In this document: positions 22,301-57,759 of the stretch, one piece after another
Layout: the number at the start of each line of letters is the position of its first letter
Position numbering within the stretch: the stretch's first letter is position 1
DNA from: Eledone cirrhosa
Lineage: Eukaryota
Direction of reading: 5' to 3'
Assembly: GCA_964016885.1 (NCBI GenBank)
Contig: OZ024747.1
Location: forward strand, 68,138,001 to 68,202,000
DNA length: 64,000 nt
The notes under the pieces: generated by a model
The model's input: only the letters and a program-made list of their open reading frames with translations
Told to the model about the DNA's origin: nothing
Database searches by the model: none
Position numbers and translations under genes: made by a program

Positions 22301-22761
22301 CCTGCATAGTCCCAACGTGCATCCAGGATGTCATTCCAATCCCCCGCTAGAAGCAGGGAACGCGACGTTCCCAGAAAAGTCTCCAAACGCTGGAAGAAGT
22401 CGGGCCGTTCAGCTCCGAAAGGGGAGTAGACGGCGACCAGTCTCAAGGCCGCACTTTCACTACTGCCAACGTCTAGCACCAACAAACGACCCTCCGGGTC
22501 CGAGTGCACAACCTGTACGGCAAGACCCAGGTGTTTTTGCAGCAGCACGACAACCCCACCCCCACCTCCAGGTTGACAGAGAGATGCATGCACCTCAAAG
22601 TCATCGAAGGTGGGGGCCAGCTGCCGCATGACGCTGATTCGAGTCTCACAGATAACCATTACATTTATACTACATGACCTGAGGTCATTTAGAAGCTTTG
22701 CTTGCTTCCAAGTTGAGCCCAGGCCACGTGCATTCAAACATCCTACTCTTAACACATCCAT
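19324..22761 (-). CDS. Tx1-type ORF2: apurinic-like endonuclease, reverse transcriptase, C-terminal zinc finger
   Basis: LNARGL, ICET, GDWN, LDRF, TDH (endonuclease); KSPGLDG, NFRPITLLN, DQSKAFDRV, RQGCPLS, YADD (RT); CPRC...ETVAHALVQC. Confidence 0.96.
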   Translation of the reverse strand: MDVLRVGCLNARGLGSTWKQAKLLNDLRSCSINVMVICETRISVMRQLAPTFDDFEVHASLCQPGGGGGVVVLLQKHLGLAVQVVHSDPEGRLLVLDVGSSESAALRLVAVYSPFGAERPDFFQRLETFLGTSRSLLLAGDWNDILDARWDYAGACPNRGGCNSLKGLLDRFNLVDRYRLDFPTVPTWTWRNHSGQSRSYLDRFLVRSKDRDILSCPEMRTVGYTDHKLVTCVVNLEKTHRQGPGYWKLNLSLPAKETYRNRISRLVKERLTGAIVNNRWWASLKREIRTESISYSKMLAANRNRNEKELTGKLEEAIKSEDVARVLASRTALNQFFDAKHEGCVIRSKIRALGNEGAKAVGWARVTEAKSGNRSTIRSLQDEDGRVIREPKQMCEAFQKHFARLFGGGEGPGRGVDFGPYLDGLPRLSNKEAESCEGPISADEIGDALSQCSRRKSPGLDGIPYELYLAMPVFFSELLEAVYCNWQQNGRIPCSVAKGVVTLVRKDENKGDSINNFRPITLLNTELKILAKVLAKRLALVVGGLVGDAQTCAIPSRSIHDNLHLMRYIIERVGNKPGFGGALINLDQSKAFDRVDHGYLDAVLAAAGFGPVFRGWITALHSNHICSRIKVNGYLSKPFEITRSIRQGCPLSSLLYVLTLEPLLRKLELLQGIPLEPGLSKAVSAYADDVTVMVSTDSEIEAIGTLLEEYERLSGAKLNREKSIGLQLGTWRGKPMPPDGVVGHWTEGPVKLLGVWFGPDLQVEKNWNEVTNKVFALTQKWAKCKLSLKGRAEVANIYIASVTYYRLTVVPCPKETLTTMERMLFQFLWKKRPPMVRRSICCQQPSKGGLGMPWLMMRRHALRLRHLQVFLTGQPVWAPFVKRAFPRLVSLTELQSWVKQRSGKLGDWHTECAQALRALWQAGRAIGGESTSSFYRGLVASRGDDTLGESLDMEEDELASLFGRTFGPGPMDNFQKSLAWQCYRGALPVRERLYRHGRPGRDPSKKICPRCVRHEETVAHALVQCPGVADLWGYAEQLLSRVAPIKLTAESVMTIKPPPLFTKEAKAVFLCVIAMLKEVVWWTRLKGLRSGNFLSGHSLVYFFRYHFGRRIRMEREVLGHRQFYERWVIVARMARVNGPSLYTIL

Positions 22762-22794
22762 GTGGGCGGCAGAGCCAAAGGAGAGTGTAGAGAC

Positions 22795-24672
22795 CTACCT
22801 TTCCGCTTCCCGGGGTTCGGGTTGCACGACTTCCATGGGGTCGGGGGTGTTGGGTGAAGGGGTGTCTTGTGGTGGTGTGGGGTCGTCGGTGTGTGGTGGG
22901 GTTGGGGTGTTTGGAGTTGTGTTGGGGAGGGGAAGGGGAGGGGGAAAGCTTTTTAGTAGGACGCGGTTTATGGGTTTGACAGAGGGTGGTCCTACGTCCT
23001 CCTTAAAATCCTTTTTTAGTTTTTGGTAGAGGTTCATTGGGATTTTTATTAGTTTTAAATGTGGGTGGTTTTCTGATGAAACAAAGTTTACACCTTCGGT
23101 TTGTACCGAAGGATTATTGTATATGAGTTCATTTAATTTATTATTGTTTCTGTTGATGTAAGTATAGTGTAATGTCTTTTTTTCCGATGGTGTGAGTGTT
23201 TCGAAGAGGGGAGGGGCAGGTTTGGTTTTGTTTGTTGCTGGAGGGGTGTTTTCTGTTTTGTTAGATTGTGTTGCGATTTGGGTGGGGGTTGTTTGTCCTT
23301 GTGTGTTTTGCACATGTTTTCTTTTTTTCCTTTTAATCTGTCTGAAGGACTCCGTTTCTTCCTCCGAATTCGTTGGGTTATCTTCAGTGTTGGAGGGAAG
23401 AGGTATGTTTGCTGGTAATGTTTCCGTGTTGGTTTTCTTTGTGGGGGAGATGGATGTCACTATGTTAGACTGTGTTGTGTGTTGTGTCTGCGGTGGTTGT
23501 GTTGTTTTATTGAGTGAGAGGTTGGGTGGGCCTGTATTTTGTTTTGGGGTAATGTGTTGTGACTGTTTGTGTTGTGGTGGTGTTGTGGTGTTACTGAGGG
23601 ACGGGTTGGGTGGGACTGAGTTTTGTTGTTTGTTTATCTGTTGTGGTGGTGGTGGTGGAGCTGGTGTTGGTAGCAGGGTTTTCTTTTTGTTGAGTTGGGG
23701 ACAAGCGGCCTTCAGGTGCCCTCTGCCTGCACAGATATGGCAGGACGGCCTTCTCCCCTCCACGCTAATGTTTATATACCCGTGGTCCTCTAATAGGATT
23801 CTGTCGGGTATTTGGGCGATACGTTCAGGCTTCATTTGTACTATCAGCTCTATACCTGTTCCACTGAACGCATTGCCTGTGGTTTTCCCAATGGAAATCA
23901 CGTTGTCATTCACTGGATCGATGAAGCCAGCTATGAGCCAGCAGTAGTCCACATCTGGCATCATTGCATCCAGCCATATGCGTTGAGTTTTTTTCCCCAT
24001 ATAAGATGGATAAAAGGTGAAATTTTTCGAACGAATCGGTGACAAAGCACATTTTTTTGCCGCCGATTCGTTCTTCATGATAATTGCTAGGCTTCCATAC
24101 AGTCTGTCTTTTCTTATGAAAGTTGTTTCATTCAGTACTTCTGCGAGTACTGTTTTGATATCTGCTTGAGAAGGCTGTTCAGGTTTTTTTGTACTGTTGT
24201 TGATGGTCCGAAACTTGACCGTTCGGCTTTCAATGTCTTTCGTGAATTCTTGAGGCATTTTTACCAATAAAATACCATTCTCACCTTCACTTATGTATTG
24301 TTTTGCGTCCGTGATCCTTCGTACCACATCTGAAATGTTTTCCGCTATATAAGTCAAAGATTTCTTTGTTTTCTGTGCAAATGAAATCTTGTCGTCTGCT
24401 TTGTTTTCTGATATTATGTTATTTTCAACTGTTATTTTTTTGTTTGTTGTGTCTTTGTTTGTGTTATTAGTATTGTCATGCAATTTTTCAAATTTTTTTT
24501 CTTCGTTGTTTTCGACATTTAATTTTTTCTCCGCAGATTCGTCCGTTTTTATTTTCATTTTTCCTTCCTTCTCTATGACGTTAGTTGGGAAGGAAGGGAG
24601 GACTAAAGCGTGCGAGCTTACAACTCTTACCGCTGTCCCCCCACCACTATTTTCGTTCGCTGCGTTTAACAT
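22795..24672 (-). CDS. Tx1-type ORF1, gag-like nucleic-acid-binding protein
   Basis: 625-aa ORF upstream of ORF2 with CCHC knuckle CHICAGRGHLKAAC and a Pro/Thr/Gln-rich disordered tail. Confidence 0.88.
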   Translation of the reverse strand: MLNAANENSGGGTAVRVVSSHALVLPSFPTNVIEKEGKMKIKTDESAEKKLNVENNEEKKFEKLHDNTNNTNKDTTNKKITVENNIISENKADDKISFAQKTKKSLTYIAENISDVVRRITDAKQYISEGENGILLVKMPQEFTKDIESRTVKFRTINNSTKKPEQPSQADIKTVLAEVLNETTFIRKDRLYGSLAIIMKNESAAKKCALSPIRSKNFTFYPSYMGKKTQRIWLDAMMPDVDYCWLIAGFIDPVNDNVISIGKTTGNAFSGTGIELIVQMKPERIAQIPDRILLEDHGYINISVEGRRPSCHICAGRGHLKAACPQLNKKKTLLPTPAPPPPPQQINKQQNSVPPNPSLSNTTTPPQHKQSQHITPKQNTGPPNLSLNKTTQPPQTQHTTQSNIVTSISPTKKTNTETLPANIPLPSNTEDNPTNSEEETESFRQIKRKKRKHVQNTQGQTTPTQIATQSNKTENTPPATNKTKPAPPLFETLTPSEKKTLHYTYINRNNNKLNELIYNNPSVQTEGVNFVSSENHPHLKLIKIPMNLYQKLKKDFKEDVGPPSVKPINRVLLKSFPPPLPLPNTTPNTPTPPHTDDPTPPQDTPSPNTPDPMEVVQPEPREAER

Positions 24673-25089
24673 TTCTGTTAGACGATTGAAATTTTTTGCA
24701 CAAAATTTTTTTTTTTTTTAAAACAGGTTTTTCACCTCTAGGAGGGGTAAAGATGAGCTGACCCACCGCCTGACAGTTCAGACGGAGGGTCAAGCTACAC
24801 AATTGTATCAAAATTAAGTTTGAACTCACAAAATTTCCTCAATAAATTTGAACAAAACTTCTGTGCGAAGTGAATGACATCCACACTGTAGAACAGACGA
24901 CAGCTAGATTATATATAGATATATATATATAGATATATATATATAGATATATATATATAGATATATATATATAGATATATATACATATAGATATATATAG
25001 ATATATAGATATATATAGATATATAGATATATATATATAGATATATATATAGATATATATATAGATATATATATAGATATATATATATG

Positions 25090-27390: not shown

Positions 27391-29708
27391 TAACTTTGAA
27401 TAACTTTGAAATGTTTTGGCCAGTATTGGCCCAGGCCATGTCTAACTTAATAGCACCACCTGGCGAAGTCTTTCAATTCAGGATTTGGGCACCATGGCCC
27501 ATTCGAGAAGAGAATTACTGTTTGCGGAGACATATCCGGGTGTGGGTGGTTTGTCCGGGATTACTTGGAGGAATTTGTCCAAAGACTTCTTGAATTTTGT
27601 GTGGTCAGTTTCTGTTTTGACGTGTCCTGGTGTGATGTTGAAGAGAGCAGGGCCGATTGAGGTGAAATAATTGTGCCGTATTGTTGTTATGAGTTGCGAT
27701 TTAGATTTTTGAATGGGACGGATAGCACGGGGCCCAAGCCTTGGGTGTATCTTGAAGGCGATGCCAACATCATTTGGGCAGTGATGATGGAACATTTTCC
27801 ACATCATGCAGATAATATAACGCTCACGGCGACGTTGGAGTGAGTAAAGTTTCAGGTTTTCCAATCGACCCCAGTAGTCAAGGTCTGACATGCCATCTGT
27901 CTTTTTCGTGATTGCCCTTTGAGGAGCTTCAAGTTTCATGATACTTTGTTTCGTGTGGGGAGACCACAGTGGACAACAGTATTCAAGGTGTGGTCGGGCG
28001 AAAGTAGAGAAGAGAAGGATAATGGTGCGGGAATCTCTCGACTGGAAGGTTCTGAGGATCCAGGAACACATTCTGCGGGCCATGTCAACTTTGCTGCTTA
28101 TATGCGTGGTCCAGCTTATGTTGCTGTCCACGGTTACTCCCAAGTCTCTGATGTTGTTAGATGCCACGAGAGTTTCCCCGGAGGGAAGGGAGTACGGGAG
28201 TTTCAGAGCATCCTCTTTTCCAAAGTGGATCAGTTCGAATTTGTCTTCGTTCAGTAACATGTTGTTCTTTTCTGCCCATTGGGTAACAGCCAGTAGGTCT
28301 GACTGAAGGCTTATCCGGTCATCCACGCCATTGATGACCTTTTGGAGCTTGGAATCATCAGCGAAAATTTTAATGTTGCTGTGTTTGATGATGTCAGTGA
28401 TGTCATTAATATAGATGATGAAGAGAAGTGGGCCCAACACAGTGCCTTGTGGGACTCCACTACTGACTTTGGCTGGGCTTGATTTGACTCCCTCAACTAC
28501 AACATGTTGGGTTCTGTTTGACAGGAAGCTCTTGATCCACTGCAGCAGCTTTCCAGTGACACCAATATTGGACAGCTTTCTCAGTAGAATGTTATGATCA
28601 ACCCTGTCAAAGGCCTTGCTGAAATCAAGGTAGATAACATCAGTGTTGGAACCCTCTCCCAAGGCTCTCAAAATGTCATCAAAGTGATGCAGTAGTTGCG
28701 TCAGGCAATCCCTTCCATTACGGAATCCATGCTGGTTGGAGTTCAGCATATTGTTACTCTCAAGGAAGTGGGTCATTCGCGATCTCACCACTCGCTCAAA
28801 TACCTTAATGATATGAGAGGTGAGTGAGATTGGACGGTAATTCACGGCAAGGGATTTGTTTCCCTTTTTGAAAACTGGGACAACAGACTGGGATAGAAGG
28901 TTTTCTGGCACATATCCAGCATCCAGTGAGTTCCGCCACAGATTGGCAAGAGGAGAAGCAAGTTGGTGTTGACACGCCTTCAAGACACAAGCAGGGAACC
29001 TATCGGGACCTACTGCTGAATTATGCTTGATTTCCTTTATTGCCGCCAAGACATCAAGGGCGCCAAACGTTATGTCCGATAAGGTGTAATGGGGAGTAAC
29101 ATCGCCGATACAGCCCAGATCGGCCATATCAGGATTGCTGAAAACAGAGCAGTATTGTTTCTGCAGTATCTCACCCATGGTTTTAGCATTGTCTTGAAGA
29201 GTGCCATTTTCATCAATTAGAGGGCCAACAGTAGAGCCAGTGATTTTGTGTTTTTTTGCAAATGAAAAGAACACTTTGGGATTGAGTTTGATCTTCTCAA
29301 TGGCCCAGGCCTCTTCAGCTCTTCTCTGATTGTTGATGAGGGACATTATGTTGTTTTGGAGGTTATGTTTTTTAATCTCTAGTGATGAAATGGCAGTCAA
29401 GTTGATGTGTTGCTGCTGACAGTATTTCAGCTTGTTGATTTTTTTGTTCGTTCTCTTAATTTTTCTGATGAGCGTTTTTCTATTTCTAGGGATTCTGCTC
29501 TTAGATTTGTTTATAGTTCTTAATGGGGTGTGTTTAGCACATATGTTTGTAACAGTGTCCACAAATGTCTGCCAGGACTTTTTGATGTTAGTGGGTGTAT
29601 GAGTGTGCGTGAAGGACCAGTCGACATGTGCAAGATCATGACTGATCGCTTCCCAGTTTGCATTGTGGAAATCCATAGCGTCAAACGGATGGACAGGAGA
29701 GATGACAT
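27391..29708 (-). mobile_element. CR1-group LINE, 5'-truncated, RT frame intact (27478-29676)
   Basis: NYRPISLTS, QHGFR, YLDFSKAFDRV, GVPQGTVLGPLLF, FADD, RDLGV, RPHLEYC..WSP motifs; 3' tandem repeat (TTCAAAGTTA)2. Endonuclease domain missing. Confidence 0.92.
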
Positions 29709-31487
29709 ATCTATATAGATATATATCTATATAGATATATATCTATATAGATATATATCTATATAGATATATAGATATATAGATATATATCTATATAGAT
29801 ATATAGATATATAGATATATATCTATATAGATATATAGATATATAGATATATATCTATATAGATATATATCTATATAGATATATATCTATATAGATATAT
29901 ATCTATATAGATATATATCTATAGATATATATCTATAGATATATATATATATAGATATATATATATATATATATATATATAGATATATATATATATAGAT
30001 ATATATATATAGATATATATATATAGATATATAGATATATATAGATATATATATATAGATATATATAGATAGATATATATATATATATATAGATATATAT
30101 ATATATAGATATATATAGATATATATATATATATAGATATATATAGAGATATATATATATAGAGATATATATATATATAGATATATATAGATATATATAT
30201 ATATATAGATATATATAGAGATATATATATATAGAGATATATATATATATATATATAGATATATATATATATATAGATATATATATATATATAGATATAT
30301 ATATAGATATAGATATATATATAGATATAGATATATATATATATATAGATATATATAGATATAGATATATATATATATATAGATATATATATATATATAG
30401 ATATATATATATATAGATATATATATATATAGATATATATATATATATAGATATATATATATATAGATATATATATATATATCTATATATATATATATCT
30501 ATATATATATATATATATATATATAGATATATATAGATAGATATATAGATATATATATATATAGATATATATAGATAGATATATAGATATATATATATAT
30601 ATAGATATATATATATATATATATATAGATATATATATATATAGATATATATATATATAGATATATATATATATAGATATATATAGATATATATATATAT
30701 ATATATATATAGATATATATAGATATATATATATATAGATATATATATATATATATATATATATAGATATATATATATATAGATATATATATATATATAG
30801 ATATATATATAGATATATATATATATATATATATATATAGATATATATATATATAGATATATATATATATAGATATATATATATATAGATATATATATAT
30901 ATAGATATATATATATATAGATATATATATATATAGATATATATATATAGATATATATATATATAGATATATATATATATAGATATATATATATAGATAT
31001 ATATATATATAGATATATATAGATATATATATATATAGATATATATAGATATATATATATATATAGATATATATATATAGATATATATAGATATATATAT
31101 ATATATAGATATATATAGATAGATATATATATATATATATATATATATAGATATATATAGATATATATAGATATATATATATAGATATATATAGATATAT
31201 ATATATATAGATATATATATATATAGATATATATATATATAGATATATATATATATAGATATATATATATATAGATATATATAGATATATATATATAGAT
31301 ATATATATATATATATAGATATATATATATATAGATATATATATATATAGATATATATATATATAGATATATATATATATATATAGATATATATATATCT
31401 ATATATATATAGATATATATATATATATATATATATAGATATATATATATATCTATATCTATATAGATATATATATATATCTATATA
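29709..31487. repeat. (TA)n/(TAGA)/(TATC) microsatellite
   Basis: Direct reading. Confidence 0.97.
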
Positions 31488-31982
31488 TATGTAGATAAAT
31501 CTACCAAGAGTTTACGGTAGTGTCCAATCCGTATGAAGAACTCAATGTATTCCGGATATCATGGAAAGAAGAGATGTAATGAAAATCCAATTTCGGTGAA
31601 AGATAAACGGTATACAGAGTCAAGATAAAATATTAAACAAATAATGAACAAACAATTCCTTATATTAAACAAAAAAAGTTCACTATTAGATATCTTGACT
31701 CTGTATACCGTTTATCTTTCACCGAAATTGGATTTTCATTACATCTCTTCTTTCCATGATATCCGGAATACATTGAGTTCTTCATACGGATTGGACACTA
31801 CCGTAAACTCTTGGTAGATTTATCTACATAATTTTGCTCCTATTTTCACGGAAATATTCGTATTTTTGTACTGTATGTGTGTATTAATTTTATATTTATG
31901 TATAAACATATATATATGTATGATTTTGTAAACCCATATACATTTAGTTGAGCTCTTTCAATTGTCCATCATCCATATCACA

Positions 31983-34424
31983 ATGGAAAAACAATATTTA
32001 GGAACCTCCTTAAAAAACATACCAATACCTTCTAAGGACGACTTCTTACTCCTTATGATTCAGAAAACTAATAATTTTATCAGAAGGGTTAGATGGAGAG
32101 CCTACCACTTTGATAGAAAATCTAAACAAGCAGATCGGAAATATATGTATGATTTCAACACTTACAAGAATCCACCACACAACTTTTTACTTGAAGACTT
32201 CGAGAAAGACCTTTTTAATTTAATTAAACACCTCAAATTTAAAAAGTATAAATCCGTCTTTCAAAAGGACCTTGATTCTACCCTATTGGACCTAAAAAAG
32301 TCTAAAAAAATCCATGTCCACTCGGACAAAACTGGTAACTTGTATCATATGGATATTGAACATTATAATGAGTTCATATATAAAGAACTCAGAAAAAATT
32401 ATAAAAAATCTAATAATGCGTCACTCACCAACATCAACAACAAAACACACAACATAGTAAAAAAACTAAATATTGAAGATAGAACTGAACCTTTGGCATT
32501 GAGAAGTCCACACTTCAACCTGAAAGATCACAAATCTAACTTTAACTCTAATCCTTCTATTAGACTTATATGTCCCTCCAAATCAGATATTGGAATAATT
32601 AGCAAAAAAATTTTAGATAGAGTCATCCCACAAATAAGAAAATACGTTATTTTACCACTCTGGGAAAACACCTCCCAGGTAATTAATTGGTTTAAAAATA
32701 TTAGGTGTAAATCTTCTGCTTCTTTCCTACAGTTTGATATAGATAATTATTATTCTTCTATATCACCCATACTCCTGAACAAAGCATTAATATTTGCTAA
32801 AAATAGATCTAATTTAACTTCGGATGACATTAACATTATTACACATGCTAGACAAACACTTATTGAATTTCAGAATGAATACTGGACCAGAAACACTTAT
32901 AGTAATCTTTTTGATATTACTATGGGTTCAAGCGATTCTGCCCAAATTACTGATCTTGTGGGCCTCTTTCTCCTTTTCAACATAAATGCCTCTTTTCCCC
33001 ACCTCAAAGGTGGTTTATATCGTGATGACTGTCTTCTTCTTTCTAACAACCTTAGCCTTTCAGAAATCGAAAAAAACAAAAAGCATATTAGAACTTTCCT
33101 TAAAGACTATTATAATCTTAATATTACTTTTGAAAAAACAAGTAAAGTAGTAAATTTCCTAGATATAACTTTAGATTTAGCTACGGGTATATACCAACAT
33201 TACCATAAACCTAACCAAAACTTACATTACATACACTCACAATCTAATCACCCTAAATCTATCCTTAAAAACCTTGCATATAATATATCACTTAGAATTT
33301 CTAACCTTTCTTCTAACCAAGATGTATTTGATAAAAATGCGACCTTTTATAATGAAGCTCTAGATAGAAGTGGCCACAAAAATAGATTAGAGTATATAAC
33401 TTCTACTAAAAATACTGAAAACATACAGCATAATATTACCAACAAACACCAAATGAAAAGTACACACCTAAATGCCACCCACAGTATACCCCAAAATACT
33501 AAATCTTCTAATATAAAGTATAGCAACCCTCAAAAAACTACTCATCATAAGACTATAATAAATATTAATAATAAAACTCCTAATAAAAAAGATAAAACAC
33601 CTAAATCTACAAATATAACTAAAAATAGTTGTGGTGAGATCATTAACATTATTCCTCCTAGTAAAAATCATGATACAACATATAAAAATAATAAAAATAA
33701 TAAACAACATAGAAACCGTAATAGACGAGTTACTTGGTATAATGCTCCTTTTAATTTACAAGTTAAGGATAATATTGCTAAAAAATTTTTTTATATCCTT
33801 GAGAAAAACTTCCCGCCAAACCACAAATACCATCAAATCTTAAATAGGTCTACAGTTAAATTCTCATATTCTACAACAAATAACATAAAACAAAATATAA
33901 GTGCATATAATGCATATAAATGTAAGAAAACTATAAGTATACCACCAGTACATCAAATTAACAATAATATCTCCTCAAATACAGAATTAACGAAAGGATG
34001 TAACTGTAGAAACAAAACAAACTGCCCATTAAAAGGGAATTGTCTTGTTAACAACATAGTCTATAAATGTAATGTTAAAACTAAAGATTCTATTTGCTCA
34101 TATATAGGAGCTACCTCTAACAATTTTAAGACAAGGTATAATACCCACAAACATAGCTTTAAAAATGCCGCACTGGCTAATACAACATCTCTAGCAGAAA
34201 AAATCAATAGTTATAAAAATAAAAATATAAAATATGATTTGACCTGGAGTGTGCTCAAAAGAGCCACCCCTTATCAAAATAATAGAAAGGAATGTAGATT
34301 ATGTTCCCAAGAACTATTTGAAATAATGAAGTCTAGGGATATCTTATTAAATAAAAGACAGGAATTAATTATATCGTGTAATCATAAACTAAAAAAAACA
34401 TTTAAATATTATAAACCTAATTAA
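31983..34424 (+). CDS. PLE polyprotein: reverse transcriptase plus C-terminal GIY-YIG endonuclease
   Basis: QFDIDNYY, MGSSDS, YRDD, NFLDITL, YHKP (RT); CNC-x5-CPLxGxC; IVYKC...YIGAT...FKTRY (GIY-YIG); CxLC and terminal CxH. First ATG at 31983; the frame is open from before 31962. Confidence 0.93.
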   Translation: MEKQYLGTSLKNIPIPSKDDFLLLMIQKTNNFIRRVRWRAYHFDRKSKQADRKYMYDFNTYKNPPHNFLLEDFEKDLFNLIKHLKFKKYKSVFQKDLDSTLLDLKKSKKIHVHSDKTGNLYHMDIEHYNEFIYKELRKNYKKSNNASLTNINNKTHNIVKKLNIEDRTEPLALRSPHFNLKDHKSNFNSNPSIRLICPSKSDIGIISKKILDRVIPQIRKYVILPLWENTSQVINWFKNIRCKSSASFLQFDIDNYYSSISPILLNKALIFAKNRSNLTSDDINIITHARQTLIEFQNEYWTRNTYSNLFDITMGSSDSAQITDLVGLFLLFNINASFPHLKGGLYRDDCLLLSNNLSLSEIEKNKKHIRTFLKDYYNLNITFEKTSKVVNFLDITLDLATGIYQHYHKPNQNLHYIHSQSNHPKSILKNLAYNISLRISNLSSNQDVFDKNATFYNEALDRSGHKNRLEYITSTKNTENIQHNITNKHQMKSTHLNATHSIPQNTKSSNIKYSNPQKTTHHKTIININNKTPNKKDKTPKSTNITKNSCGEIINIIPPSKNHDTTYKNNKNNKQHRNRNRRVTWYNAPFNLQVKDNIAKKFFYILEKNFPPNHKYHQILNRSTVKFSYSTTNNIKQNISAYNAYKCKKTISIPPVHQINNNISSNTELTKGCNCRNKTNCPLKGNCLVNNIVYKCNVKTKDSICSYIGATSNNFKTRYNTHKHSFKNAALANTTSLAEKINSYKNKNIKYDLTWSVLKRATPYQNNRKECRLCSQELFEIMKSRDILLNKRQELIISCNHKLKKTFKYYKPN

Positions 34425-35729
34425 TAACATTATTCTAGAATTTAATTTAATTTAAATGTTAGTTAACCTATAAATTTAATTTAATTAATATTTTATTACA
34501 GATGAGAAAATATTATGTAATCATTAATTTTGAAAAACCTTTAAATATTACTAATATATATTCAGTAATTTAATTTATAGATTAATTTTAACTTATTTTA
34601 ACCTTTTATTATAATTTTTTAATTTAGTTTAACCTTTTATTATAATTTTTTTTATTATAATTCTTTTACAGATAAAATATAACAAAATAATATCATGTAT
34701 CCTATGACGGAGAAAGAATTTTTAGTATTATTGACCTAATTAATATACATTTTGGAAATATATTTATTATTTGGTTTTAGCTTTAATCAACCTAAAACTT
34801 TAATTTTAATTTTAATTTGCTTAAAATTAGTATCCTTGTACAGACGAATTGCAGAATTTCATGTAATCATAGAATGGGAGGTGTTTTTGGATATATACCT
34901 AGTTAATATATTCTGTGCAAATTTTTTGAAAAAGATATGTATATCTATATGTATATGTATATGTGTGTATTGTATGTGTATCTGTATGTATATTTATGTG
35001 ACTATATATGTATGTATGTGTATATGTATGTATATATATATATATATATATATGTGTATGTATATGTATATGTATGTGTATGTGTATGTATATGTATATG
35101 TATGCGTATTAATTTTGATTTTTATTTGCATATAATTATATTATGCTATTGATGAAATACAATATCTGCTTTATGTATTGTATACCTAATTAACATATAC
35201 TAATTAACATATACTATTGAAATAAATATATAATTTTTAACTTAGTTAACTTATAATTTATATGCTACTACCGATGTAATACTTTATTTTATTTTTATTT
35301 GGGTTTCTTTTCCCTATTACTAAATTCATCTCCTAATATTGATACCATAACGTTATTAACTTTTATTTAGTTATAATGTAATTAATAATCTACTACTGTT
35401 TGACTTCATAATTCTGCTTCAAATATTATAAACCTAACTAATTTACACCTTGGAAATCAATATGTTGACTATCTTTGGTTTAGTTGACATATGATTAATG
35501 GTATACTTTTTTATTTTGTGATGCATAGATTTCGTATTTCCTAGCACTGAAAATATGTAAGAACATACATTGAATTAAGATATGGAAAATATTATAGGTT
35601 TCTTGAAACATATATTTACTTTGATCCCCTTCTCCAAACCCCCCCCTTTCCCCCATACTATTATCATCTGTTTTTGTAAGTGTATATGTATGAATATATG
35701 TGTAGATGGGTGTCTATATAGTTTTTTTG

Positions 35730-35765
<36 letters not shown>

Positions 35766-36260
35766 GTATTTATTTCTAAATATAAAAATACATATATGAG
35801 CATGTAAATATGAATGTATGATTGAGTGTGTATATATGATTGTACATACATATGTATGTATATATATGTATATATATGTATTATATATGTACGTGTATGT
35901 GAATGTGTGGTATATATATGTGTTTGTATATGTATATATGTGTGTGTATGTGTATGCTTGTATATAGGAATATATGTGTGTGTATATATGTATATATATG
36001 TATATGCGTGTTTGTATGTATGTGTATATGGGTTCTGTATATATTTGTATGTCTCTCTATTTATATGTTTATCTTCGTATCTATGTGATATATGTGTGTG
36101 TGTGTGCACGTATGCATATGTATGTGTTTGTGTGTGTTTGTATGTGTGTGTGTATATATATATATATGTATTTGCGCACACTCACATACACATATATATA
36201 TATATATATATATATATGTGAGTGTGTATGTGTGTCTGTATGTGTGTGCGTGTGTGTATA

Positions 36261-36291
<31 letters not shown>

Positions 36292-36319
36292 GTGTATGTA
36301 TGTGTATGTGTGTGTATAT

Positions 36320-36359
<40 letters not shown>

Positions 36360-36498
36360 ATATAGGTGTCTATGTGTGAATATATGTCTTTATTCGTATG
36401 TGTGTATTTATATATGTTTATATTTAGGTGTATGTATGTATGTGTATGTATGTATGTATATGTATGTATATGTATGTATATGTGTATATGTGTGTATA

Positions 36499-36529
<31 letters not shown>

Positions 36530-36746
36530 TATTCTTTATTATTATTGTAATATAACTTATGTGTATATGTGTATAAGTGAGGTTGTGTATGTATATATAC
36601 TATGTGTATATATAAGAGTAATGAAATATATATATATATATATATATATATGTGCATGTCTGTATTTTATGTGTGTGTGTATATATATATGTGTATGTGT
36701 GTATATATGTATGTATATATACATATATGTGTACGTGTGTGTATGT

Positions 36747-36789
<43 letters not shown>

Positions 36790-36900
36790 TGGATGTTTGT
36801 ATGTGTTTTCATGGTGGTATGAGTGTGGGATATATATGTTTGTGTATAAGTATATGTATGTGTATGTATATATATATATGAGTCTATGTGTGTGTGTATA

Positions 36901-36951
<51 letters not shown>

Positions 36952-37719
36952 ATGTGTGTATGTGTTGCGCGTGTGTGTGTCCGTATTTTTATCTTTTTAC
37001 ATGTGTATGTGTATGTTCGTGTAAATGTATGTGTGTGTATGACAGTATAGGTATGTGTGTATGTATGTATGTGTAGATATCTCTATGTGCGCGTACATGT
37101 ATGTATGTGTATGTATATCTGTATGCATATGTACATTATATTATATGTAATATATTTTATTGTTTTTATTTTTTTATTTTTCATAATTTATAGATACATT
37201 TATATTAGGCTGTCTGGTCTGACAACCTAATACTGACCCCTCCCCCCCCCTCCCACCTAATTTCTGTATCTTGATCTTGAAATGTGTGTACCAGTGTGCT
37301 TATGTGAGTGACTTAATTTCTATTTGCTTATGATTTTATATCCACATATATAAATGTGAGTGGGGGAGTGTGTGTGTTTGTGTGTTCGTGGTTATGTGTA
37401 TATTTATATATATACGCACATGTATGTGTGATTATACTGATATGTGTGAGTATGAAAAAAATATATTTATATGCTTGACTCCATAAGTATCATTGCGTAT
37501 CTTATCAGCGCATTAAGCTTACAGAGATATTAACCTTGAAATTTTTTATTTGCATCCATCTTTTTAGTATGCACATACAAATTATACACACATTATTGTA
37601 AAATGTGTGTAGGGTTTTACATGTATATACACACACCAAACTGCTTTTTAACCCTTTGTGTTTTCATTGGTCAATTTTGAACTGATATTTTGAATTGTTG
37701 TTATTATCAATAAATATAC

Positions 37720-37874
37720 TTCATTATTTCTGAAGACGGCGTATATATGAGTTAGGTATGTATATTTAATCTTGATAATTTGTATAATTTTGTATAATTT
37801 TGTACATAGATCTGTTAAATATGCATACCAATTATAACACATATATACCCTAGAAACGATCGTTAAATAGTGAA
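37720..37874 (+). ncRNA. Type I hammerhead ribozyme with a 116-nt helix II (helix III CGATCG)
   Basis: 10-bp stem I TTCATTATTT/AAATAGTGAA, CTGAAGA 37730-37736, stem II with GTATATATG/CATATATAC and GGTATGTATATTTAA/TTAAATATGCATACC, GAAA 37853-37856, CGATCG, GUU site with predicted cut after 37864. Confidence 0.85.
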
Positions 37875-37930
37875 CTTTTTTTGTTTAATATAAGGAATTG
37901 TTTGTTCATTATTTGTTTAATATTTTATCT

Positions 37931-39105
<1,175 letters not shown>

Positions 39106-41811: not shown

Positions 41812-43308
41812 TATCATCATCATCGTTTAACGTCCATATTCCATGCTTGCATGGGTTTGGACGGGAGTTTTCCCACTTGAGGCAAGAGTGGTTGTCTTGC
41901 TCGCATAGGACTGTCTGGCGGGTTTTCTACAGCTTGATGCCCTTCCTAACACCAACCACATTTACAGTGTGGGGCTGGGAGGTTTTTACCGTGTTACCTA
42001 CACAGCCACATTACAGCGTGGACTGTGTTTTTTTGTCGTGACACCTACACGACCTCATTTGTTTTGGCCTGGATGTTGTGGTCCCAACATAACTTTACAT
42101 TGAAAGGGGCGGTGTGGGTGAGGTGGGGGTAGTGGGACAGGGGTGTATTTTGTTAGAGGTGCCTACTGACTGTAGTAGGTTTTACTTTGTATTTAGGTAA
42201 GGCGGGTCTTCTCTATTACTGAGTACCGCCAAAGATCTCGGTCCAGTGACATTGTCTTGGAGAGGTGTAAGTGTGTGAGGTCGGAATTTATCAAGTCGTC
42301 CCAGGTTTTTCTGGGTCTGCCTACTCCGTAGCTACCGTCTATCTTTATTGCCCTGCACTTTTTTATACAGCTGTCGTCTTTCATGCACATCACGTGACCA
42401 TACCAATGTAGCCTTCTCTCGAGTAAACAACATCTGATCCCTCTAATTCTAATTTTTCCCTTAGTTCGTTAATGCTTTGCCGTTCACGTATATTACTATT
42501 ACACATCCAGCGGAGCATGCAAGCTTCGTTCCTCTCTAGTCTGCGTATATCCTCTGCACACAATGCCCAGGTCTCACTGCCATGCAACATTGCTGTTCGT
42601 ATGCAGGCATCATACAGCCTGCCTTTCATTTTTAGGGAGAACCCTTTAGCGGCTAATAGTGGTATAAGATCTCTGAACTTTTTCCATCCAGTTCTGACTC
42701 TAGCTACTGTACTTTCAGAGCACCCTCCCCCACTGCTGATTTTGTCACCTAGGTAACGGAAGCTGTCCACTATTTCTATAGAACCCTCTGTGCAATTGAA
42801 AGAGCTAGTATTTTGTGGGCACTTGCTGCTACTTATTGCACCAGAGCACCGGCTACATGTAAAATCTATGTTCTTAGTTAGCTTACCTGTGATCCCACTA
42901 CATCTTTTATGCATCCATACTTTGCATTTGGGACATAAAATGGAGTTTCTACCTACGCCTTTCCTACACACTGAGCATGGCCATTTCCCGGATGGGACCG
43001 GCGCCCTATTTTCCTTCCTACAAACTAGAACTTTAGTCTTAGCCAGGTTAATTTTAAGGCCTTTTGATTCTAGGCCGTGCTTCCATGTTTAGAATTTCTT
43101 CTCTAGTTCGGCCATTAATTCAGCTATGAGTGTTAGATCATCTGCGTATAGCAGTTCCCATGGGCAGCCGGTCTTGAACTCCTCTGTTATAGCCTGAAGG
43201 GCAATAATAAATAGTAGGGGGCTGAGAACAGAGCCCTGATGGACGCCAACTTTTACGCTAAACTCTTCACTATATTCGTTGTTAATTCTAACCTTGCTGA
43301 CTGTTTCT
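41812..43308 (-). mobile_element. RTE-clade LINE, 5'-truncated
   Basis: Reverse complement of the 14280-15780 family; ORF pieces 42390-42971 and 42193-42393. Confidence 0.93.
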
Positions 43309-55456: not shown

Positions 55457-57759
55457 CCTCCTTTTGTCTGAGGCTGGGTCTGGTATGCAAGGATTGTTTC
55501 CTGGGTGTTATTTTGCAGCGCCTGCCCGCCGGGGTGTTAAGACTTGTTGCAGGGAGATCCAGTGTACTGTTTCACTCTTCATCCTTAACCCATCTGAAGA
55601 AGGATATTTTTAAGCGATGTGTACAACTTATCGCTGTTTCAGCTCTGCTGTTGATGAGCTCGTGGGGTGCAGTTATGATGTGGTAGAGCTCCATGAGGCA
55701 AAGATCGCATTTCCTCTTGAAGTTGTACGGTGCAGCCCTGCCGACAATCTCCCAGTGCGTGGAGAAGCTGATGTTTAAGTCCTTTAGTGATGTGATGTAG
55801 TCCGCGAGCGAAGTGGAGTGCCTTAGTTTTCTATTTGTGAAAGAGTGGAGATGTGTTCGAAACCTAATTTTGAACGGGCCGGAGGTAGCCTCTATATAAT
55901 GTTTAACGCTATTGTGGCTAGCCGTTACCCATGTCTCTCAAGTGTATCCCCTTACCCAGCAGAAAAACCTACCTTAAACTGCTTATAGACGCTACTAATT
56001 CGTTTATACGGCGAGTCAGGTGGAAGGCCTACCACCTGGATAAGAACACCCGTAACCTTCCTGAACCCAAAGAGAGGTATGGCTTCAAAACATACCGAAA
56101 CCCACCGCACAACACCTTACTGGACTCCTTTGAAGAGGACCTGCTGAAAATGATCCAAAACGTTAAGCTCAGAAAGAAACACCAATGCAGCAATCCATTC
56201 TTAATGTCCCTTGATACACTAATAACTAAGATCAAGAATGACCCGCACCTCTTCGTCACCTCCGACAAAACCAAAAAGCTGTACAAGATGGACGCGAGTG
56301 AGTATAAAAATTCATCTATAAGGAACTACACAAAGACTACAAAAAGACACCCTCTAGTACCCTAAATGACATCGAGTTGGGAAGGATATAGTCACCAGCT
56401 TAGAAATAGAAAAGTACACTAACCCATACGTCCCTCTGACGCCTAAATTCTCTCTTAAGGATCACAAATATGACTTTAATGAAAGCCCCTCTATTAGACT
56501 AATATGCCCCTCTACATTAGATATAGGTAAGATTAGTAAAGTGATCCTCGACAGAGTACTACTGGAGCTTAATAGAAAGGCTAAGGTCTGCCTCTGGGGC
56601 AACACCGACCAGGTCATAAATTGGTTCACAGAGTTGCCGGATAAAGCCACCCTGAAATTCATCCAGTTTGATATAGATAGTTACTACGCCTCTATCTCCC
56701 CCATACTCTTAAATAAGGCACTTATCTTAGCTAGATCTAACACTAGCCTCACTAAAAAAGAAATAGACATAATTCTAGCGGCACGTAGAACCATTATCCA
56801 GTTCGAAGGCTCCCACTGGACCAGAACCAACCATCCTGATAACTTCGATGTCACGATGAGGTCCAGTGACTCAGCGCAAGCAACTGACCTGGTCGGGATA
56901 TACCTCCTACATAAGCTTAGGGAAGAAATACCGGCCCTACAAGGAGGTGTATATAGGGACGACGCCCTGTTTACCGTTAAGAACCATAGCCCCCATAGGA
57001 TAGAGAACCTTAACAAACATATACACAGGTTCTGTAAGTCATACGGCCTATCCGCTGCCCCCTTAGAGGATACTGCTTGACTGATAGGGTTATATATAGA
57101 TGCACTATTACTAGCCACAATAGCGTTAAACATTATATAAGGGCTACCTTCGGCCCGTTCAAAATTAGGTTTCGAACACATCTCCACTCTTTCACAAATA
57201 GAAAACTAAGGCACTTCACTTCGCTCGCAGACTACATCACATCACTAAAGGACTTAAACATCAGCTTCTCCACGCACTGGGAGATTGTCGGCAGGGCTGC
57301 ACCGTACAACTTCAAGAGGAAATGCGATCTTTGCCGCATGGAGCTCTACCACATCATAACTGCACCCCACGAGCTCATCAACAGCAGAGCTGAAACAGCG
57401 ATAAGTTGTACACATCGCTTAAAAATATCCTTCTTCAGATGGGTTAAGGATGAAGAGTGAAACAGTACACTGGATCTCCCTGCAACAAGTCTTAACACCC
57501 CGGCGGGCAGGCGCTGCAAAATAACACCCAGGAAACAATCCTTGCATACCAGACCCAGCCTCAGACAAACGGATGCAGCAAAAAAAAAAAAAAAAAAAAA
57601 AAATTGTCCGGGAAAGACTGCCCTAACACCGGCTAGAGTTACCTCCCTTGACCTGCTGCAAAATCAAAACAAGATATTTTTGCGAGCAATGAACCTTGAT
57701 GTGGATTTAACCCCAAAAACTCTTTCCGAGCAATATAAGGAACACTTGTGATTATTTAT

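What the first reader, a model, noticed from the sequence alone, without database searches (positions are those of the whole stretch)
31488..37930. Intact PLE whose structure records the ribozyme cut and one exact permuted lap
Seen: the inverted 5' arm (31488-31687) stops within 1 nt of the predicted hammerhead cut; it matches from 37866 and the cut is after 37864. The direct part starts at TATCT (31691) and ends at the equivalent TATCT (37930), so it is one circularly permuted 6240-bp unit with a 5-nt overlap. Inference: one cDNA ran off the self-cleaved 5' end, while the other copied exactly one unit length, as expected from a circular RNA template or two-ended internal priming.
Basis: partly seen in the sequence, partly recalled or inferred. 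Interest (0 to 1): 0.85.

Follow-up and report, generated by a model that had tools for sequence, protein, structure and literature searches.

The report
Twin-primed, rolling-circle Penelope retrotransposon
This is one copy of a young ribozyme-bearing Penelope-type jumping gene whose relatives in the genome are head-to-head pairs of arms ending at two fixed sites, often with several near-identical tandem laps, which likely means its RNA is copied from both chromosome ends at once and likely as a circle, an idea proposed years ago but never shown.

Summary
The coordinates are right: a 200-bp inverted arm ends 1 nt from a real hammerhead cut site, followed by one permuted 6235-bp unit with an intact 813-aa RT/GIY-YIG ORF that carries Hydra-clade motifs. 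But this copy is weak evidence on its own. Cut-site stops are 12 against 1110 seamless crossings, about 1.6x background (P~0.08). Both 3' ends are fixed family-wide, 64 and ~200 nt past the cut, and long arms stop near 64 no more often than background. The family says more. (1) 87 of 87 resolved two-armed insertions have one arm from each site: twin internal priming, likely on one RNA. (2) Short arms pile up at a 5' end 141 nt upstream of the cut; 0 of 101 arms stopping there is lap-long. (3) Long arms run up to nearly four laps that differ by 0.65/kb within an insertion against a median 15.9/kb between insertions, and laps are as old as arms. One unit is therefore likely reiterated during insertion: rolling-circle copying of a ribozyme-cut, ligated RNA (~0.6), or seamless intramolecular strand transfer. 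No RNA data were available.

The parts
31488..31687 (-). Inverted arm, unit pos 2-201: cDNA likely primed at the downstream site (~pos 200) from the left flank; ends 1 nt short of the hammerhead cut
   Evidence: exact matches; fixed 201 end across the family
31688..31695 (.). Head-to-head junction: 3-nt filler forming an 8-nt palindrome with the start of the direct arm
   Evidence: sequence; the junction pattern finds only this copy in the genome
31691..37930 (+). Direct arm, one permuted unit (pos 62 round to 64-66): cDNA likely primed at the upstream site (pos 64) from the right flank
31983..34424 (+). Intact 813-aa ORF: PLE reverse transcriptase (YRDD) with C-terminal GIY-YIG-type endonuclease and Hydra-clade motifs
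34425..37722 (+). 3.3-kb 3' UTR rich in (TA)/(TG) microsatellites; unit length differs between loci (tandem spacing about 6.05-6.7 kb) but is near-constant within an array
37709..37714 (+). AATAAA hexamer 9 nt upstream of the main 5'-stop site, kept in the subfamilies aligned
37721..37729 (+). Main RNA 5' end inferred from piled-up cDNA stops (mode 37723 = pos 6094, in an Inr-like TCATT): likely transcription start, or a poly(A)-cleavage end
   Evidence: 209 hits; 45 of 101 arms stop exactly at 6094
37719..37874 (+). Type I hammerhead ribozyme, long helix II, palindromic helix III (predicted to work as a dimer); predicted cut after 37864
37926..37930 (+). Upstream priming site (pos 64 = 37928; its other copy is 31693), the 3' end of one arm in every two-armed insertion
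31826..31830 (+). Downstream priming site (pos ~200-201), the 3' end of the other arm; pos 65-201 is this family's 137-nt 'tail'
29887..31487 (.). Left flank, (TA)n/TAGA microsatellite target
37931..38900 (.). Right flank, (TA)n/GA microsatellite target; no target-site duplication discernible

Best explanation
This is a copy of a young Penelope-like retrotransposon with Hydra-clade motifs whose insertions have two head-to-head arms ending at two fixed sites, likely because both ends of a cut (TA)n microsatellite prime reverse transcription on one RNA, and whose long arms likely come from rolling-circle copying of a hammerhead-cut, re-ligated circular RNA. Shown in the DNA: fixed ends at pos 64 and ~201, one of each per insertion; a 5'-stop peak at pos 6094 used by short arms; seamless crossing of the cut site; multi-lap arms that are clonal within an insertion. 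Inferred steps: transcription starts at pos 6094; RNAs with one hammerhead stay uncut (helix III needs a partner) and give short palindromes ending at 6094; RNAs with two hammerheads cut as a dimer, and the unit is ligated to a 6.2-kb circle; two RTs start at 64 and 201, the rear one often stalling at the front primer (stops at 54-66); the two cDNA 3' ends are joined by microhomology or filler. A minority of templates is likely cut at the 5' hammerhead only. The window copy may come from such a template (arm running off the cut end, about 0.45), but its one-lap length cannot be told from chance.
For: One arm per site in 87 of 87 resolved insertions (79 of 80, the one exception a locus-edge artefact resolved; 7 of 7 more). 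Same molecule: 45 of 49 stops at 54-66 are on arms primed downstream; both arms stop at the same internal point in L286 (1281/1281), L093 (5986/5986) and L297 (~4998). No 5' end in long templates: 0 of 101 arms stopping at 6091-6107 is lap-long; 28 of 30 ORF-bearing units (23 of 24 arms) cross 6094 and none stops there; 1110 exact crossings of the cut, and none of the 12 hits of the cut-window pattern is a junction indel. Reiteration: 117 differences in 179,038 compared sites within 34 insertions (0.65/kb) against a median 15.9/kb over 555 between-insertion pairs; 156 alleles private to one insertion are shared by all its laps and arms, 40 are lap-private. Laps date from the insertion: lap-vs-lap 33/51,954, arm-vs-arm 37/67,380 in the 12 of 17 insertions with both comparisons. 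Helix III is a 10-nt palindrome that self-pairs, as in dimer-dependent PLE hammerheads (PMC4209133).
Against: No RNA evidence for cleavage, ligation or a circle. Frangieh 2024 (PMC11167929) found, for a Poseidon element, that hammerhead mutants do not affect insertion in vitro, no RNA-seq reads end at the cut, and RT start sites do not differ between the two target strands. One long copy of an older subfamily does stop at 6094 (L148, 1 of 16 long copies aligned), and one lap-long arm stops at 6076-6079 (X189). Array G is mosaic: its 3'-most lap carries ancestral alleles where three upstream laps share derived ones. The arms of L283 differ at 3 sites whose alleles occur elsewhere. So seamless switching between templates happens, and it could itself make laps. 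Locus H (older subfamily, laps 5.5-26/kb apart) was left out of the clonality count. Long arms are not enriched for stops at their own priming sites, which a one-lap self-collision would predict. True-stop counts were partly judged by eye from listings cut at 100 rows.
Confidence: 0.6

Rival explanations
1. Twin priming as above, but laps come from a linear RNA with two pseudo-LTRs: at the 5' end the cDNA transfers by homology to the 3' pLTR of the same RNA and starts another lap, like a retroviral strong-stop transfer. The hammerhead is incidental.
For: Gives clonal laps and seamless junctions too. Homologous switches between templates are seen (G, L283). Hammerhead activity was dispensable in vitro for PAc (PMC11167929, passages in parts 1-2 of the text).
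Against: Transfer would have to be almost complete, since 0 of 101 arms stopping at 6094 is lap-long while short arms run off there freely. No allele shared by both termini and absent from inner laps was found (the apparent case in F was an alignment artefact), though only 1-2 are expected, so this is weak.
Confidence: 0.25
2. Multi-lap arms are copied from long read-through transcripts of existing arrays, or expand after insertion by unequal crossing-over or gene conversion; no reiteration happens during reverse transcription.
For: The read-through model is the one sketched by Frangieh 2024 (PMC11167929). G and H have heterogeneous laps.
Against: 156 insertion-private alleles are shared by all laps and by both inverted arms. 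Laps are as diverged from each other as from the opposite arm, so they are not later duplications. Lap-specific alleles are almost all singletons not seen elsewhere. Read-through predicts long arms ending at 6094.
Confidence: 0.1
3. The inverted arm arises by fold-back self-priming, possibly on an antisense template (Arkhipova 2013, PMC3846280).
For: Junction palindromes occur, including the 8-nt one in this copy.
Against: The two arms usually cover different, independent extents. In this copy the arm holds pos 2-61, which is not adjacent to the fold point. A fold-back copy of a 64-ended arm cannot gain pos 65-201. Stops of the downstream arm at the upstream site fit two primers on one sense RNA.
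Confidence: 0.05

Closest known systems
Hydra clade of C-terminal EN+ Penelope-like elements (Craig et al. 2021, PMC8557442; section 11 and passages read)
   Same: RW(K/R), DKT, CxCX5C linker, CxxC and CxH around E/N, no conserved CCHH cysteines, C-terminal GIY-YIG, hammerhead, (TA)n target
   Different: Unit is 6.2 kb against generally <3 kb (microsatellite-filled 3' UTR); tail is 137 nt against the 30-40 bp given for PLEs; no mechanism described for the clade in what I read
PAc (Poseidon of Anolis) in vitro (Frangieh et al. 2024, PMC11167929; parts 1-2 of 4 of the text read)
   Same: Internal RT initiation at two sites downstream of the hammerhead that define the tail; both target strands cut and extended; AT-rich target; hammerhead mostly read through
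   Different: There no start-site difference between strands was seen and tandems are ascribed to multi-copy mRNA; here every two-armed insertion uses one site per side, the sites are 137 nt apart, and laps are clonal per insertion
Circular-RNA model for PLEs and metazoan retrozymes (Cervera & de la Pena 2014, PMC4209133, parts 1-2 of 4; 2020, PMC7229834, passages)
   Same: Minimal dimer-type hammerhead; cut-and-ligate circles proposed as templates for more-than-unit reverse transcription
   Different: [quoted passage not shown]
Penelope of Drosophila virilis and Adineta (PMC2377424, PMC3846280; passages read)
   Same: Partial tandems with an inverted pLTR, tail on one of the inverted repeats, junction palindromes, Inr-like motif in the pLTR
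   Different: Head-to-head structure was explained by antisense self-priming; the data here favour twin priming on sense RNA
LINE-1 twin priming (recalled, not from a call)
   Same: Two target ends prime two cDNAs on one RNA, giving an inverted 5' part
   Different: L1 primes once at the poly(A) end and once at a variable internal site; here both sites are internal and fixed, and arms overlap and can run several laps

Membership tests
EN+ Penelope-like element | Single ORF with RT and GIY-YIG endonuclease | tested here: met
   813-aa ORF; D348/D349, Y694, Y707, G709, R718, H722 invariant in 60 aligned sequences; best PDB match a retron RT, E 0.0013. Pfam and NCBIfam give no significant hit; the fold job did not finish.
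EN+ Penelope-like element | Partial-tandem pseudo-LTRs, inverted 5' copy, tail at one end | tested here: met
EN+ Penelope-like element | Type I hammerhead in the pLTR | tested here: met
   core, helices and palindromic helix III by fold and conservation; activity not tested
EN+ Penelope-like element | RT groups with PLE/TERT in a phylogeny | not tested
   homologs found are unnamed; no reference PLE proteins were held
Hydra clade | RWK motif and DKT in place of DKG | tested here: met
   RWR here (K 35, R 17 of 60); D, K 60 of 60, T 54 of 60 (definition)
Hydra clade | CxCX5C linker; CxxC and CxH around the conserved E and N | tested here: met
   C673/C675/C681 in 60, 57, 60 of 60; C771/C774 59 of 60; C799/H801 58 of 60
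Hydra clade | No CCHH motif inside GIY-YIG | tested here: met
   the two cysteines this copy has there are not conserved (C696 4 of 60; C705 not among the top three residues)
Hydra clade | Insertion into (TA)n | tested here: met
   flanks of the arms
Hydra clade | Generally short (<3 kb); a described tendency, not a strict criterion | tested here: not met
   unit 6235 bp; the excess is the microsatellite-rich 3' UTR
Naiad/Chlamys or Neptune | N-terminal EN (Naiad); CX2-5CxxC plus CCHH (Neptune) | tested here: not met
   EN is C-terminal, linker is CxCX5C, CCHH absent
Circular-RNA retroelement (retrozyme-like cycle) | Self-cleaved monomer is ligated to a circle found in vivo | not testable with these tools
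   needs RNA; only DNA-level signs are available

The most novel reading that the evidence does not exclude
An autonomous eukaryotic retrotransposon replicates through a 6.2-kb hammerhead-made circular RNA that an RT pair copies by rolling circle from both ends of the cut chromosome at once, one RT fixed to each of two sites 137 nt apart. The genome holds hundreds of products recording each step: start-site run-off on uncut RNA, primer collision, cut-end run-off, and clonal multi-lap arms. This would explain pseudo-LTRs, tails, inverted arms and the hammerhead of Penelope-like elements with one mechanism.
Probability: 0.5. Interest if true: 0.85.

Novelty: new variant of a known kind. Interest (0 to 1): 0.68.

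Why it matters
How Penelope-like elements, the sister group of telomerase RT, make their tandem and inverted structures, and what their hammerheads do, is stated as open in the papers read (PMC8557442, PMC11167929). This young, high-copy family supplies copy-level rules that separate the published models: one priming site per side, a 5' end used by short but not long arms, and laps clonal per insertion. It favours the 2014 circular-template proposal or an equivalent re-entry step over read-through of arrays and antisense fold-back. It also names exact sites for RT-PCR, RACE and an in vitro assay; 21 of 29 laps checked keep an ORF of at least 780 aa.

Tried and rejected
Rfam finds no hammerhead; Pfam and NCBIfam give no significant family for the ORF. 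Sequencing-run search: no RNA holder listed. AlphaFold job never finished, so no fold comparison. Whole-window self-BLAST timed out. Control window 103-118 was swamped by a T-run variant (3555 hits; 1 of 100 listed looked like a stop), so it served only as a copy-number floor. Stops of long arms at the downstream site: about 6-7 of 59 hits, not above the ORF control (8-9 of 100 listed, 156 hits): rejected as a hotspot. 'One exact lap' as a recurring product: 2 clear cases among 49 stops; the junction pattern finds only this copy. An apparent terminal-versus-inner allele in array F was an alignment artefact, as were arm differences at 5983-5990 in X188/X189. Four-gamete test across the cut site: 10-19% against 8-9% for same-side pairs, with unequal sampling and non-independent pairs: inconclusive. 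A DPE-like match at +28 is not conserved across subfamilies: dropped. First guesses of Naiad and Neptune were rejected on motifs. Earlier scan findings: none returned. Literature: five searches on mechanism listed no paper reporting twin priming or clonal multi-lap arms for a PLE; the library lacks most subscription journals (Arkhipova 2006 and Pyatkov 2004 were not seen), and no supplements were read, including Frangieh's Figs S1-S2 and the bioRxiv files, which may bear on strand-specific start sites.
Full report
Observation. Positions are given in the unit, with pos 1 = window 37865 and length 6235. The inverted arm 31488-31687 is an exact reverse complement of pos 2-201; three filler bases follow; the direct part runs from pos 62 round to pos 66. 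A type I hammerhead sits at 37719-37874 with its predicted cut after 37864 (fold z -5.5); its helix III is a 10-nt palindrome that pairs with itself. In the common variants tabulated the core is unchanged and the base at the cut is T or A, as expected for the free position. Rfam does not find it. The ORF 31983-34424 is open for 813 aa.

Identity. 112 unnamed homologs were found. In a 60-sequence alignment the catalytic DD and the GIY-YIG-type residues are invariant; the best solved-structure match is a retron RT at E 0.0013. The motifs match the definition of the Hydra clade (PMC8557442 section 11): RW(K/R), DKT, CxCX5C, CxxC, CxH and no conserved CCHH cysteines. I did not build a tree against named PLEs. 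The family is young and large: 40 of 40 scored matches were 100% identical to the arm, 1110 copies cross the cut site exactly, and one pLTR pattern has 3555 matches including related subfamilies.

Two fixed 3' ends, one per side. Arms end at pos 64 or at pos ~200-201 (about 292 in window coordinates for related subfamilies) and run into (TA)n. Of 111 head-to-head junctions, 80 had both ends resolved; 79 had one arm from each site, and the exception was a locus cut at its edge, resolved as one-of-each. Seven more were completed and all follow the rule. These loci came from targeted searches, not a random draw, but none selected on the pairing. So the window copy's right end, and 3 of the 5 overlapping bases, are simply the family's upstream site; the other 2 also match the target repeat.

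Both primers likely sit on one RNA. A pattern for 5' stops at pos 52-67 gave 151 hits, 100 listed; 49 were true stops by eye (mode 62, 11 cases), the rest sequence variants. 45 of the 49 are short arms primed at the downstream site that halt at the upstream site, 3 are long (window copy, L178, array B) and 1 was unresolved. In L286, L093 and L297 both arms stop at the same internal point. L283 is an exception: its arms differ at three sites whose alleles occur elsewhere.

Where arms stop. The main stop is not the cut. A window at pos 6091-6106 gave 209 hits, nearly all true stops. In loci covering 99 of the 100 listed hits, 101 distinct arms were classified: 45 stop exactly at 6094 (window 37723, in an Inr-like TCATT), 57 are 64-ended, 44 downstream-ended, and none is lap-long. 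I read 6094 as the transcription start; an AATAAA 9 nt upstream leaves a poly(A)-cleavage end possible, and a DPE-like match is not conserved. At the cut, a six-position window gave 12 hits including this copy, all true stops, spread flat, against 1110 crossings. A control window at 6200-6216 gave 41 hits, about 25 true stops (20 loci mapped); scaled with my approximate detection rates, 7.5 are expected, P 0.08 (Poisson) or 0.12 (binomial). Cut-ended templates probably exist as a minority: in J both lap-long arms end at pos 1-3 and 12-16, and long arms end at 2, 3 and 8 in X188, X189 and X192.

The 'exact lap'. Long arms stop at 54-66 in 3 of 49 cases and at 189-205 in at most 6-7 of 59 hits; the ORF control at 628-644 has 8-9 stops among 100 listed of 156 hits. 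There is no excess, with the caveat that the anchors sample subfamilies differently. The exact junction occurs only here. One thing stays unexplained: both 64-primed one-lap arms (window, L178) have partners that stop at pos 2 and 11. With n = 2 and noticed after the fact, this may mark a template cut at the 5' hammerhead only, or a nicked circle.

Long arms come from a reiterated unit. Of 30 units carrying the ORF's 5' end, 28 (23 of 24 arms by my grouping) run upstream through the cut and through 6094 and none stops there. Arms reach nearly four laps. Within 34 insertions, laps and arms differ at 117 of 179,038 compared sites (0.65/kb); between insertions the median is 15.9/kb (555 pairs, 5th percentile 3.9, minimum 1.0); 156 alleles private to an insertion are shared by all its covering laps, 40 are lap-private. 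Left out of that count: locus H (older subfamily, laps 5.5-26/kb apart, part of a larger duplication) and two neighbouring separate insertions. Lap-versus-lap divergence equals arm-versus-arm divergence (33/51,954 and 37/67,380 in 12 of 17 insertions), so laps date from the insertion rather than from later unequal crossing-over. Against a clean picture: G's 3'-most lap came from a different template or was replaced later; L148, 1 of 16 long older copies aligned, stops at 6094; one X189 arm stops at 6076-6079.

Mechanism. The simplest account (inferred): RNAs with a single hammerhead stay uncut and give short palindromes ending at 6094; RNAs with two hammerheads cut as a dimer and are ligated, losing the 6094 end, and are copied by rolling circle from both target ends. 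Seamless homology-guided transfer on a linear two-pLTR RNA gives the same DNA and cannot be excluded: the tests I could run (terminal versus inner alleles; four-gamete test) lack power. I put twin priming at about 0.9, reiteration at insertion at about 0.85 and the hammerhead circle at about 0.6.

Known work. Frangieh 2024 (PMC11167929, parts 1-2 of 4 read) showed two internal start sites that define the tail, extension of both target strands, no need for the hammerhead in vitro and no start-site difference between strands. Cervera 2014 (PMC4209133, parts 1-2 of 4) proposed circles as templates for more-than-unit copying without in vivo evidence; circles were later shown for small retrozymes (PMC7229834, passages; bioRxiv 10.64898/2026.07.22.740005, part 1 of 5 and passages). 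Arkhipova 2013 (PMC3846280, passages) explained head-to-head arms by antisense self-priming. Schostak 2008 (PMC2377424, passages) describes the internal promoter. Searches listed no paper with the one-site-per-side rule or clonal laps; the library is incomplete and supplements were not read.

Verdict. Observation confirmed; interpretation partly supported. The window copy is a striking but statistically weak witness; its family is a strong one. New variant of a known kind, interest 0.68.

Noticed in passing
window 19324-24717 (-): Apparently full-length LINE with two open frames: 640 aa (no Pfam hit) and 1156 aa (endonuclease, RT, zf-RVT), L1/Tx1-like in layout (label recalled).
   Followed up: partly
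window 27478-29742 (-): 754-aa open frame with an RT domain, a separate LINE inside microsatellite.
   Followed up: partly
window 634-1463, 13920-15396, 42390-43088: Several fragments of one RT-encoding LINE family with a PHD finger.
   Followed up: partly
window 56370-57080 (+): Fragment of a second PLE, 52% identical over 231 aa to the main ORF.
   Followed up: partly
window 16041-16511 (+): 156-aa frame that looks like a Tc1/mariner transposase fragment (recalled; no Pfam hit at 0.001).
   Followed up: no
window 60519-61010 and 61683-62303 (-): Two open frames that look like exons of a host gene; no Pfam hit.
   Followed up: no
window 37750-37761: A splice-donor-like GGTATGT about 33 nt downstream of the main 5' end, kept in most subfamilies. 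An intron from here would split the hammerhead and could remove both priming sites, like the 5' UTR intron of D. virilis Penelope; it also lies in helix II, so conservation is not proof.
   Followed up: partly
L198-L222, L323-L342: Many ~550-bp palindromic mini-copies (6094-64 joined to 6094-201) with slightly different junctions: independent MITE-like products of the same family.
   Followed up: partly
L188 (junction at 693-788), L089, L093: Junction fillers made of short repeated re-copies of the arm ends, suggesting repeated slippage when the two cDNAs are joined.
   Followed up: no
L204, L216, L323 and others: A related subfamily has its downstream end about 90 nt further out (about pos 292) while the upstream end stays at 64, so tail length has shifted within the family.
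   Followed up: no
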